A stretch of 64,000 nucleotides of DNA from a virus. The translations under genes were made by a program, and so were the position numbers. Location: positions 1-64,000 of the IMG/VR virus record IMGVR_UViG_3300032931_000905; one strand, written 5' to 3'. Of this stretch, positions 62,575-62,863 are shown in pieces (within the stretch, counting starts at the first letter, position 1; the number at the start of each line of letters is the position of its first letter). The notes beneath the pieces are model-generated. The model made no database searches. It was not told the DNA's origin and was given only the letters and a program-made list of their open reading frames with translations.

Positions 62575-62863
62575 ATTGAGGAGCGCCCAACCATTGTCAC
62601 ATACACCCCATCCCTACCATGCACCGCCTCATCCAATCAGTGTGCTGCGTAGGTGTGAAGGATTGTGTATTTCCCTTCACCCGTCAGAATCGGCGTTCGC
62701 TATGGATTAACAACGCCACGATTCTGTAAAACATTTTACCCCAGTATCCAGATTAGACCGTCGATCAAACGGCCGCTGTTGTCCTTCGTCCGCTGTGGTA
62801 AATGCCTTAGGTTCGTATGTCGGTCTCGCCTGAGAGAAAGCCTTGCGGCCTACGCTCCTCATT
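62575..62863 (-). ncRNA. Unidentified ~290-nt multi-stem structured RNA
   Basis: Ends pair (TGAGGAGCG/CGCTCCTCA); at least six internal helices; helix mismatches are mostly G-U on the minus strand; fills the gap between two tRNAs. Confidence 0.75.

What the first reader, a model, noticed from the sequence alone, without database searches (positions are those of the whole stretch)
62575..62863. Unrecognised ~290-nt multi-helix RNA embedded in the tRNA/tmRNA array
Seen: the gap between tRNA-Arg(GCG) and tRNA-Ser(GCT) has no credible ORF but folds extensively. A 9-bp stem joins both ends (62577-85/62853-61). A GGCC-GCAA-GGCU GNRA hairpin follows (62839-50), then ACAUAC/GUAUGU (62815-20/62599-604), which closes a multi-way junction with four arms. 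Arm 1 is a ~17-bp helix (62793-809/62727-44) enclosing a sub-hairpin (62756-74). Arm 2 is 62685-97/62712-26, arm 3 is 62655-61/62674-80, and arm 4 is 62613-24/62642-53. Most imperfections are A-C on + but G-U on -, as expected of selection on a minus-strand RNA. The loops of arm 2 (AUCCA) and arm 4 (UGGAU) are complementary, suggesting a kissing-loop pseudoknot. Known: large phage ncRNAs such as GOLLD and ROOL sit beside tRNA genes, but they are much longer. I see no RNase P, 6S, SRP or intron signature. Inference: a new RNA class, released from the polycistron by processing of the flanking tRNAs, possibly a decoy for RNA-sensing defences, a scaffold or a ribozyme. This is my best candidate for an undescribed system.
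Basis: partly seen in the sequence, partly recalled or inferred. Interest (0 to 1): 0.9.

Follow-up and report, generated by a model that had tools for sequence, protein, structure and literature searches.

The report
New folded RNA in phage tRNA operon
The gap between two tRNA genes of this uncultured Nitrospira phage most likely holds a gene for a roughly 285-base folded non-coding RNA that matches no catalogued RNA family, is kept in a few closely related phage strains, and has no known function.

Summary
Window 62577-62861 (minus strand) folds as described: a terminal stem, a GCAA hairpin, a second closing stem and four arms. MFE is -100.9 kcal/mol, z -3.1, and 18 kcal/mol better than the plus strand.

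Rfam 15 gives no match at E<=10.

Two metagenome contigs carry the same RNA at 93-96% identity. Contigs from 4 of 4 sediment runs laid also carry it. The relatives show two compensatory pairs (A-U to G-C), in the terminal stem and the GCAA hairpin. The interior is almost invariant, so its helices and the proposed AUCCA/UGGAU kissing loop remain untested; that loop match alone is not beyond chance (P about 0.13).

A conserved sigma-70-like promoter six tRNAs upstream suggests co-transcription with the tRNAs.

A covariance model found nothing in 62 related viral records or 155 Nitrospirales genomes, so the family is narrow.

Three relatives carry miniature RNase P RNAs in their tRNA arrays. The target is not one of them: signature motifs, profile and model all fail.

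Verdict: probably a real new RNA family of the known kind "structured RNA cargo in phage tRNA islands". Function is unknown.

This scan noted this same stretch twice. It found comparable RNAs, not linked to this one by any search I ran, in other phages.

The parts
62577..62861 (-). The structured non-coding RNA (about 285 nt from the first to the last base of P1). 3 nt separate it from the CCA of tRNA-Arg and 9 nt from G+1 of tRNA-Ser.
   Evidence: Fold (z -3.08). Homologues in L092 and L093. CM R1 scores 359-370 bits on the three copies only.
62852..62861 (-). P1, 5' strand (RNA positions 4-13). It pairs with 62577-62586.
   Evidence: Pair 6-286 changes from A-U to G-C in L092 and L093.
62577..62586 (-). 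P1, 3' strand (RNA positions 279-288).
62838..62851 (-). Hairpin capped by a GCAA (GNRA) tetraloop (RNA positions 14-27).
   Evidence: Pair 14-27 changes from A-U to G-C and pair 15-26 from G-U to A-U in L092. The loop is invariant.
62824..62837 (-). Small 4-bp hairpin UCUC/GAGA with a 6-nt loop (RNA positions 28-41). It appears in the MFE but not in the centroid.
   Evidence: The stem is invariant. One loop change occurs in L092 (position 33).
62814..62820 (-). P2, 5' strand ACAUACG (RNA positions 45-51). It closes the multi-arm junction with 62599-62605.
   Evidence: Invariant, so untested by covariation.
62599..62605 (-). P2, 3' strand (RNA positions 260-266).
62727..62809 (-). Arm 1 (RNA positions 56-138). 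It carries an apical hairpin at 62756-62774 whose loop holds GAUC in this allele and GCGC in the other.
   Evidence: The inner register differs between alleles.
62685..62726 (-). Arm 2 (RNA positions 139-180), loop AUCCA.
   Evidence: Invariant in 3 of 3 sequences.
62655..62680 (-). Arm 3 (RNA positions 185-210): a 7-bp stem with a 12-nt loop.
   Evidence: It carries the only local resemblance (39 nt, 10.5 bits) to the relatives' RNase P RNAs.
62613..62653 (-). Arm 4 (RNA positions 212-252). Its large apical loop contains UGGAU.
   Evidence: C239U turns an A-C mismatch into A-U in the relatives.
62865..62941 (-). Upstream tRNA-Arg(GCG), with CCA encoded.
62485..62567 (-). Downstream class-II tRNA, Ser(GCU)-like.
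   Evidence: 30.3 bits as tRNA-Sec. The L093 counterpart is called tRNA-Ser(gct).
63377..63405 (-). Sigma-70-like promoter TTGACA-17-TATACT (11 of 12, with TG). It lies six tRNA genes upstream of the RNA.
   Evidence: Both hexamers are identical in L092 and L093.

Best explanation
Window 62577-62861 (minus strand) is a gene for a stable, highly structured non-coding RNA of about 285 nt. It belongs to a T4-like phage that, judging by its host-derived genes, infects Nitrospira.

Inferred route of synthesis: the RNA is transcribed from the conserved promoter at 63405-63377 as part of one precursor. In that precursor, reading 5' to 3', six tRNAs or tRNA-like genes (ending with Arg-GCG) are followed by this RNA and then by four Ser tRNAs. 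Host tRNA-processing enzymes then free it. RNase P cutting at G+1 of tRNA-Ser, 9 nt after P1, would set its 3' side. 3' maturation of tRNA-Arg, whose CCA ends 3 nt before P1, would set its 5' side.

Structure: P1 joins the two ends. A GCAA hairpin and a second closing stem (P2) follow, then four arms.

Evolution: it behaves as an optional cassette among the "RNA cargo" of these arrays, which also includes tmRNA, mini RNase P RNA and a YrlA-like RNA.

Most likely mode of action (guess, not shown): it works through its fold rather than through long antisense pairing. It would act as an RNA-only or RNA-protein scaffold, possibly pairing with copies of itself through its loops.

Shown: the fold, the conservation, two compensatory pairs, the context, and the absence of any catalogued family match.
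Inferred: co-transcription, processing, stability and function.
For: - Fold: z -3.08 on the minus strand, and 18 kcal/mol better than the plus strand. Nine G-U pairs.
- No Rfam 15 family at E<=10 or at E<=1 over the whole array.
- Homologues: L092 and L093 from one metagenome scan. RNA identity is 93.4% and 95.5%. That compares with tmRNA at 82.6%, the neighbouring 66-codon ORF at 68%, and tRNAs at 57-100%.
- Substitutions respect the structure predicted from this sequence alone. In L092, 3 pairs are broken where 8.0 are expected (P=0.010), and 2 pairs are compensated (P=0.007). In L093, 1 pair is compensated (P=0.046).
- RNAalifold: 95 pairs. Pairs 6-286 and 14-27 each change on both sides, 15-26 goes from G-U to A-U, and C239U repairs an A-C mismatch.
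- Contigs covering the RNA lie in 4 of 4 sediment runs laid, from four studies.
- A promoter scoring 11 of 12 lies upstream. No minus-strand terminator-like site lies between it and the RNA. The promoter is conserved in both relatives.
- No protein relative for two long frames. One frame is broken in L092.
Against: - Only three full sequences exist, all at least 93% alike. RNA positions 102-238 differ at a single site, so P2, arms 2-4 and the loop-loop pairing have no comparative test.
- High identity could reflect recent shared ancestry or cassette exchange rather than selection. The array is a mosaic, and several neighbouring tRNAs are 100% identical in L092.
- For L093 the broken-pair test is not significant (P=0.18). 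The two relatives share most changes, so the tests are not independent.
- CM R1 found no copy in any of the following:
  - 92 loci, apart from the three known copies
  - 49 plus 13 related viral records, including six that CheckV rates complete, among them G001 and G207
  - 155 Nitrospirales genomes
- One contig in run X5 joins 62568 to 62864 (depth 26.8, shorter side 32 letters, letters between not known). This hints at a sister allele without the RNA, so the RNA is dispensable.
Confidence: 0.62

Rival explanations
1. It is a recently acquired or decaying spacer cassette with no function of its own. Its high identity among strains reflects recent common descent or recombination between arrays. 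Its fold is a by-product of composition and of descent from some older structured element.
For: - The array is a mosaic in which some tRNAs are 100% identical between strains and others 57-84%.
- The RNA is missing from every more distant relative searched.
- One X5 contig may lack it.
- Interior helices show no covariation.
- The L093 broken-pair test is not significant.
Against: - Two double compensatory changes plus one G-U to A-U change fall in the only helices that vary. For L092, P is 0.007-0.01.
- Folding z is -3.08, with clear strand asymmetry.
- The RNA is better conserved than the tmRNA and the ORF next to it.
- It keeps its sequence in at least three different downstream contexts: window and L092, L093, and the X5/X7 joints.
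Confidence: 0.2
2. It is an extremely diverged or rearranged RNase P RNA. It would be the counterpart of the miniature class A RNase P RNAs that related phages carry in the same part of their tRNA arrays.
For: - Three relatives encode RNase P RNAs of 281-303 nt between tRNA-Leu(CAA) and tRNA-Arg(GCG) or nearby: G001 at 176.6 bits, G203 at 122.4 bits and G214 at 180.7 bits.
- This phage fragment and its two strain-level relatives have none.
- Size and terminal-stem architecture are similar.
- There is a 39-nt local resemblance in arm 3 (GGGUGAAGGGAAAU against GGGUGAAGUGAAAC).
Against: - RF00010 gives no match at E<=10.
- An nhmmer profile of the three phage RNase P RNAs finds nothing on the target, even with --max and E<=100.
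- CM R2 with filters off gives only the 39-nt, 10.5-bit piece. That search returned 114 hits at E<=10, so its E-values are far too generous.
- The motifs the three phage copies keep are absent from the target. The best matches are GAGGAAAGUC 7 of 10, ACAGAAC 6 of 7, CCGCUUAU 6 of 8 and GGUGCAACUC 7 of 10.
- By my own estimate, a 12-of-14 match between two RNAs of about 300 nt is expected about 0.3 times by chance.
- The complete relative G207 has neither RNA.
Confidence: 0.04
3. It is a cis-acting element of the tRNA precursor rather than a trans-acting RNA. It would be a structured spacer that tunes processing order, stability or read-through for the four downstream Ser tRNAs.
For: - It lies inside the operon with no promoter or terminator of its own.
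- It always sits directly after tRNA-Arg(GCG) and before Ser tRNAs in the three full copies.
Against: - About 285 nt with five or more helices and a GNRA hairpin is far more than a processing spacer needs. Other junctions in the same arrays are 2-10 nt long.
- Its downstream neighbour differs between strains.
- Relatives manage the same tRNAs without it.
Confidence: 0.08
4. It encodes a small protein.
For: Frames of 73-83 codons are open across it.
Against: - The frames overlap the flanking tRNA genes, and the RNA-strand frame is broken in L092.
- No relative was found among 5.8 billion predicted proteins for the two frames searched, and not even a gene call on this contig itself.
- Substitutions follow base pairs, not codons.
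Confidence: 0.01

Closest known systems
Phage T4 RNAC and RNAD (species 1 and 2 stable RNAs in the T4 tRNA gene cluster)
   Same: Non-tRNA RNA genes embedded among phage tRNA genes of a T4-like phage. They are presumably made from the same precursors, and their function is still unknown. PMC9697503 (passages read) calls them "RNAs of yet unknown functions".
   Different: The T4 RNAs are much shorter: about 120-140 nt by my recall and by earlier notes of this scan, which I did not check. blastn against 50,697 phage records, among which I assume T4 stands, found no similarity. So the likeness is in genomic niche only, not in family.
GOLLD and ROOL RNAs
   Same: Large structured RNAs of phages and prophages, "often near tRNA islands", of unknown function. 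Their folds use kissing loops and A-minor contacts and assemble into RNA-only cages (PMC12286853, abstract and passages read). The target also sits in a phage tRNA island, has a GNRA loop, two mutually complementary loops and a self-complementary loop.
   Different: They are two to three times longer. No Rfam match to either at E<=10. Nothing here shows that the target forms multimers.
manA RNA motif
   Same: A compact structured RNA (under 200 nt). A 2026 preprint reports that it forms a 60-subunit cage (10.64898/2026.07.01.735769; abstract and outline only).
   Different: No Rfam match at E<=10. I did not compare the architectures beyond that.
Bacterial class A RNase P RNA (Rfam RF00010), including the miniature copies in related phages
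   Same: Similar length to the phage copies (281-303 nt). It has a terminal stem joining both ends and occupies the same region of the tRNA array.
   Different: The model score, the phage-specific profile and model, and the conserved motifs all fail.

Membership tests
Bacterial RNase P RNA class A (RF00010) | Match to the Rfam covariance model at or above the gathering score (100 bits) | tested here: not met
   No match at E<=10 in 62050-64000 or in the whole 89-kb record. The relatives' copies score 122-181 bits.
Bacterial RNase P RNA class A (RF00010) | Conserved core motifs (GAGGAAAGUC, ACAGAAC...CCGCUUAU, GGUGCAACUC), as kept in the three phage copies | tested here: not met
   Best matches in the target are 7 of 10, 6 of 7, 6 of 8 and 7 of 10. 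The phage copies keep 8-10 of 10, 6-7 of 7, 6-8 of 8 and 10 of 10.
Bacterial RNase P RNA class A (RF00010) | Full-length similarity to the phage-specific RNase P profile or model | tested here: not met
   nhmmer with --max finds nothing on the target. CM R2 with filters off matches only 39 nt at 10.5 bits.
Bacterial RNase P RNA class A (RF00010) | Cleaves the 5' leaders of pre-tRNAs | not testable with these tools
   Needs an in vitro assay.
GOLLD / ROOL / manA / OLE / raiA-type ornate RNAs | Match to the family's Rfam model | tested here: not met
   None of the 4227 Rfam 15 families matches the target at E<=10. I recall, but did not check, that GOLLD, ROOL, manA, OLE and raiA are among those families.
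GOLLD / ROOL / manA / OLE / raiA-type ornate RNAs | Sits beside or inside tRNA islands of phages | tested here: met
   It lies between two tRNA genes in an array of 26 genes that ARAGORN calls (25 tRNAs and a tmRNA), plus several it misses. The phage nature rests on the IMG/VR record and the baseplate gp53 domain.
GOLLD / ROOL / manA / OLE / raiA-type ornate RNAs | Forms RNA-only homo-oligomers through loop-loop and A-minor contacts | not testable with these tools
   Hints only. The AUCCA/UGGAU match has a chance P of 0.13. The apical loop is GAUC in one allele and GCGC in the other, both self-complementary.
T4 RNAC/RNAD-type stable RNAs of tRNA clusters | Non-tRNA RNA gene on the same strand inside a phage tRNA operon | tested here: met
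   A promoter lies upstream, and no terminator-like site lies between it and the RNA.
T4 RNAC/RNAD-type stable RNAs of tRNA clusters | Sequence similarity to T4 rnaC or rnaD | tested here: not met
   blastn (word size 11) against 50,697 phage records found no match at E<=0.01. That T4 is among them is my assumption.
T4 RNAC/RNAD-type stable RNAs of tRNA clusters | Accumulates as a discrete stable RNA | not testable with these tools
   No RNA run is listed among the 20 holders.
tmRNA, SRP RNA, 6S RNA, Y RNA/YrlA | Match to the Rfam model | tested here: not met
   The phage's own tmRNA is found elsewhere (61576-61880, 120.9 bits).
Group I / group II introns | Interrupts a host gene, and matches the intron models | tested here: not met
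   Both flanking tRNAs are complete. No intron match falls on the target.

The most novel reading that the evidence does not exclude
The RNA is a compact self-assembling RNA, a small and unrelated counterpart of ROOL, GOLLD and manA. Copies would join through the complementary AUCCA and UGGAU loops, and through a self-complementary apical loop that differs between alleles but stays palindromic (GAUC in one, GCGC in the other). Each phage lineage would then build its own RNA-only multimer in the infected Nitrospira cell.
Probability: 0.1. Interest if true: 0.7.

Novelty: new variant of a known kind. Interest (0 to 1): 0.45.

Why it matters
Phage tRNA islands are emerging as a reservoir of structured RNAs whose roles are unknown: T4 RNAC/RNAD for fifty years, and more recently GOLLD, ROOL and manA with their RNA cages.

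This RNA adds an uncatalogued fold of about 285 nt from a phage of Nitrospira, a key nitrifier for which, to my knowledge, no phage-host culture system is available. It sits in arrays that also carry tmRNA and, in relatives, miniature RNase P ribozymes.

If it is functional, it is a compact and tractable target for structure determination, and for asking what non-tRNA cargo does during infection.

Its weight is limited by its narrow distribution and by the thin comparative evidence.

Tried and rejected
Searches for more homologues that found nothing:
- blastn against 50,697 phage records.
- nhmmer on 88 IMG/VR loci.
- blastn on 5 whole related records.
- CM R1 on 92 loci, where only the three known copies matched, on 49 plus 13 viral records, and on 5 plus 151 Nitrospirales genomes.
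- Three exact 19-21-mers of the RNA in IMG/VR.
- The neighbouring 115-aa ORF. It has no relative in IMG/VR, and only itself among 5.8 billion proteins.

Two long frames over the RNA were used as a proxy to find gene calls on other contigs. No candidates came back.

Expression: no RNA holder is listed among the 20 runs, so nothing can be said about it.

RNase P reading: rejected, as set out under rival explanations.

Other readings rejected by Rfam and context: SRP, 6S, Y RNA, intron, retron and omega RNA. For the last two, no reverse transcriptase, IscB or TnpB gene turned up in the ORF list of 60000-64000 or among the ten ORFs put to Pfam; the rest of the window was not scanned for them.

Ro/TROVE protein as a partner: none in the 89-kb record.

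CsrA-sponge idea (GGA motifs): dropped. There are only a few GGA sites, and one is lost in the relatives (G74C).

GNRA-receptor idea (CCUAAG/GAUGG): dropped, because L092 changes the UG of GAUGG.

A joint from 62568 to 62864 in one X5 contig may mark an allele without the RNA. Its shorter side is only 32 letters and the letters between are not known, so I treat it as a hint.

The read laying difference table was cut (82 rows not shown), so the variant list for X1 and X5-X7 is incomplete.

Supplementary files of papers were not opened.

Full report
**What is there**

The window is part of an 89-kb IMG/VR virus record that CheckV rates 53% complete. From 60671 onward the minus strand carries a long tRNA array. 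ARAGORN finds 12 genes in the window and 26 in 60001-72000, including a tmRNA at 61576-61880.

The target lies between tRNA-Arg(GCG), 62865-62941, and a class-II Ser(GCU)-like tRNA at 62485-62567. ARAGORN misses the latter and Rfam scores it 30 bits as tRNA-Sec. The tRNA-Arg gene encodes its CCA, which ends 3 nt before the first paired base of the target. The last paired base lies 9 nt before G+1 of the Ser tRNA.

**The fold**

As RNA, the minus strand of 62571-62864 has an MFE of -100.9 kcal/mol. Dinucleotide shuffles average -84.8 (z -3.08; 1 of 200 as good). The plus strand reaches -82.9.

- P1 (RNA positions 4-13 with 279-288)
- a hairpin with a GCAA loop (14-27)
- P2, ACAUACG/UGUAUGU (45-51 with 260-266)
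- four arms (56-138, 139-180, 185-210, 212-252)

The proposed AUCCA/UGGAU kissing loop is a real 5-nt complementarity. A match that long between two hairpin loops appears in 12.6% of loop shuffles, and UGGAU occurs twice in the RNA.

**Not coding, not catalogued**

Frames of 73-83 codons cross the region, but they run into the flanking tRNA genes and one is broken in a relative. Two of them have no relative among 5.8 billion predicted proteins.

Rfam 15 (4227 families) gives no match on the target at E<=10, and none at E<=1 across the whole array.

**Relatives**

IMG/VR neighbours were found with flanking proteins: pyrimidine-dimer glycosylase, the beta subunit of a 2-oxoacid:ferredoxin oxidoreductase, and DNA ligase. 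They show no sequence match.

A public-run index listed 20 sediment or freshwater-sediment metagenome runs from 16 studies. None is on record as RNA. I laid four of them, and all four have contigs covering the RNA with 14-40 differences per contig.

One exact-word scan of JGI metagenome contigs returned two 5.5-kb contigs, L092 and L093. They carry the RNA directly after tRNA-Arg(GCG).

Identity over the RNA is 93.4% (L092) and 95.5% (L093). In the same alignments the tmRNA is 82.6% identical and the 66-codon ORF 68%. Individual tRNAs range from 57% to 100%. The RNA is thus conserved like the better-kept tRNAs, but the array is a mosaic.

**Comparative test of the structure**

In the three-sequence alignment, RNAalifold keeps 95 pairs:
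- Pair 6-286 in P1 is A-U here and G-C in both relatives.
- Pair 14-27 in the GCAA hairpin is G-C in L092.
- Pair 15-26 goes from G-U to A-U.
- C239U turns an A-C mismatch into A-U.

I then compared the substitutions with the centroid structure, which was predicted from this sequence alone. In L092, 3 pairs are broken where random placement breaks 8.0 (P=0.010), and 2 pairs are compensated (P=0.007). In L093 the values are P=0.18 and P=0.046.

The two relatives share most changes, so this is modest evidence, and it bears on P1 and the first hairpin only. RNA positions 102-238 differ at one site, so P2 and arms 2-4 are untested.

Five of the changes cluster in the apical loop of arm 1. There GAUC (window and run X1) is replaced by GCGC (L092, L093, X5, X6, X7). 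Both are self-complementary. This would fit a symmetric loop-loop contact between two copies. A palindromic 4-mer in a 9-nt loop is common, however, so it is only a hint.

**Transcription context**

A TTGACA-17-TATACT site with a TG extension lies at 63405-63377 on the minus strand, just before the first tRNA-like gene of this block. No minus-strand terminator-like site lies between it and the RNA. Both hexamers are identical in L092 and L093. Co-transcription with six upstream and four downstream tRNAs, followed by release through tRNA processing, is the natural reading. It is inferred, not shown.

**Distribution**

A covariance model of the three copies (R1) scores 359-370 bits on them and finds nothing else:
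- in 0.94 Mb of fetched loci
- in 49 plus 13 whole related viral records. These include the complete genomes G001 and G207, whose DNA ligase is 61% and 80% identical to the window's.
- in 155 Nitrospirales genomes

In L093 the RNA is followed by a different 95-nt spacer. Joints in X5, X6 and X7 place it next to other neighbours. One X5 contig joins 62568 to 62864, possibly an allele without it (short side, letters between not known).

The RNA therefore behaves as an optional cassette restricted to a narrow clade.

**Host**

The oxidoreductase beta subunit is 81-85% identical to homologues in the 80 loci kept. Nearly all of these are Nitrospira or Nitrospiraceae genomes, so the phage very likely infects Nitrospira.

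**The RNase P question**

Three relatives carry class A RNase P RNAs of 281-303 nt, with a largely deleted specificity domain, inside their tRNA arrays:
- G001, L082:5352-5654, 176.6 bits
- G203, L176:1560-1840, 122.4 bits
- G214, L189:1501-1784, 180.7 bits

That is 3 of the 62 related records searched. This raised the possibility that the target is a further-diverged copy. I tested it four ways:
- RF00010 on the whole record: no match at E<=10.
- An nhmmer profile of the three phage copies: nothing on the target.
- A covariance model of their core (R2) with filters off: only a 39-nt, 10.5-bit local match in arm 3. That search returned 114 hits at E<=10, so its E-values are too generous.
- The motifs the phage copies share: absent from the target.

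I conclude it is not an RNase P RNA. A 4% residue remains for a rearranged relic.

**What it most likely is and does**

It is most likely a genuine structured non-coding RNA gene of a new, narrow family. It sits in the same genomic niche as T4 RNAC/RNAD, which PMC9697503 (passages read) calls RNAs "of yet unknown functions". GOLLD and ROOL occupy that niche too: they are "often near tRNA islands" and form RNA-only cages held by kissing loops and A-minor contacts (PMC12286853, abstract and passages read). The manA motif forms a 60-subunit cage according to 10.64898/2026.07.01.735769 (abstract and outline only).

I commit to this reading: a stable RNA excised from the tRNA precursor that acts through its fold, most plausibly as a scaffold. 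Self-association through its loops is the boldest option still open (about 10%).

I found no paper on this RNA. My searches were by topic words and cannot find a sequence.

Earlier notes of this scan describe comparable RNAs in other phages' tRNA arrays, which no search I ran links to this one, and phage mini RNase P RNAs. I used them as leads only.

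Noticed in passing
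L082:5352-5654, L176:1560-1840, L189:1501-1784 (related IMG/VR phages): Three relatives encode miniature class A RNase P RNAs (281-303 nt, 122-181 bits, specificity domain largely deleted) inside their tRNA arrays. That is 3 of the 62 related records searched. My topic search found no paper on phage RNase P RNAs. Earlier notes of this scan report the same kind of RNA in other phages.
   Followed up: partly
window 62388-62478, 62945-63030, 63040-63115, 63301-63375 (minus strand): Four tRNA-like genes (by eye Ser-CGA, Val-UAC, Thr-GGU and Thr-CGU) are called by neither ARAGORN nor Rfam here. At least two of their counterparts in L092 and L093 (Thr-CGU and the gene after Leu-CAA, only 67-79% identical to the window's) are called as tRNAs. 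The T- and D-loops look non-standard.
   Followed up: partly
G000 65570-65854 = L090:5570-5854 (minus strand, just beyond the window): A second unassigned structured stretch of about 285 nt lies in the same array. It has no Rfam match at E<=1 and no match to model R1. Only 142 nt of it are kept, at 91% identity, in L092 and L093.
   Followed up: partly
window 62198-62281 (minus strand); L093:about 210-290 (minus strand): Tiny ORFs of about 27 hydrophobic codons sit between tRNA genes. In L093 one lies directly after the target RNA.
   Followed up: no
window 59712-60623 (minus strand): A TPP-binding beta subunit of a 2-oxoacid:ferredoxin oxidoreductase lies directly after the array. It is 81-85% identical to homologues in the 80 loci kept, nearly all Nitrospira or Nitrospiraceae genomes. 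It is a host-derived metabolic gene and names the host.
   Followed up: partly
window 53163-54335 (minus strand); L093:3955-4066: The phage encodes an RtcB RNA ligase (Pfam E 2.8e-126). A relative's array has a weak YrlA (Y RNA-like) match of 37 bits, below the cut-off of 69. No Ro/TROVE protein is found in the 89-kb record.
   Followed up: partly
window 61576-61880 (minus strand): ARAGORN reads a different tag peptide from the phage tmRNA here than in L092 and L175, where the tag ends ...EEFALAA. An overlapping frame in the window ends ...HELAMAA, so the tag call in the window is probably in the wrong frame.
   Followed up: no
L093:595-671 against window 62865-62941: tRNA-Arg(GCG) of L093 has its anticodon stem rewritten by three fully compensated pairs, and one compensated pair each in the acceptor and T stems, while the adjacent target RNA is almost unchanged.
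   Followed up: no
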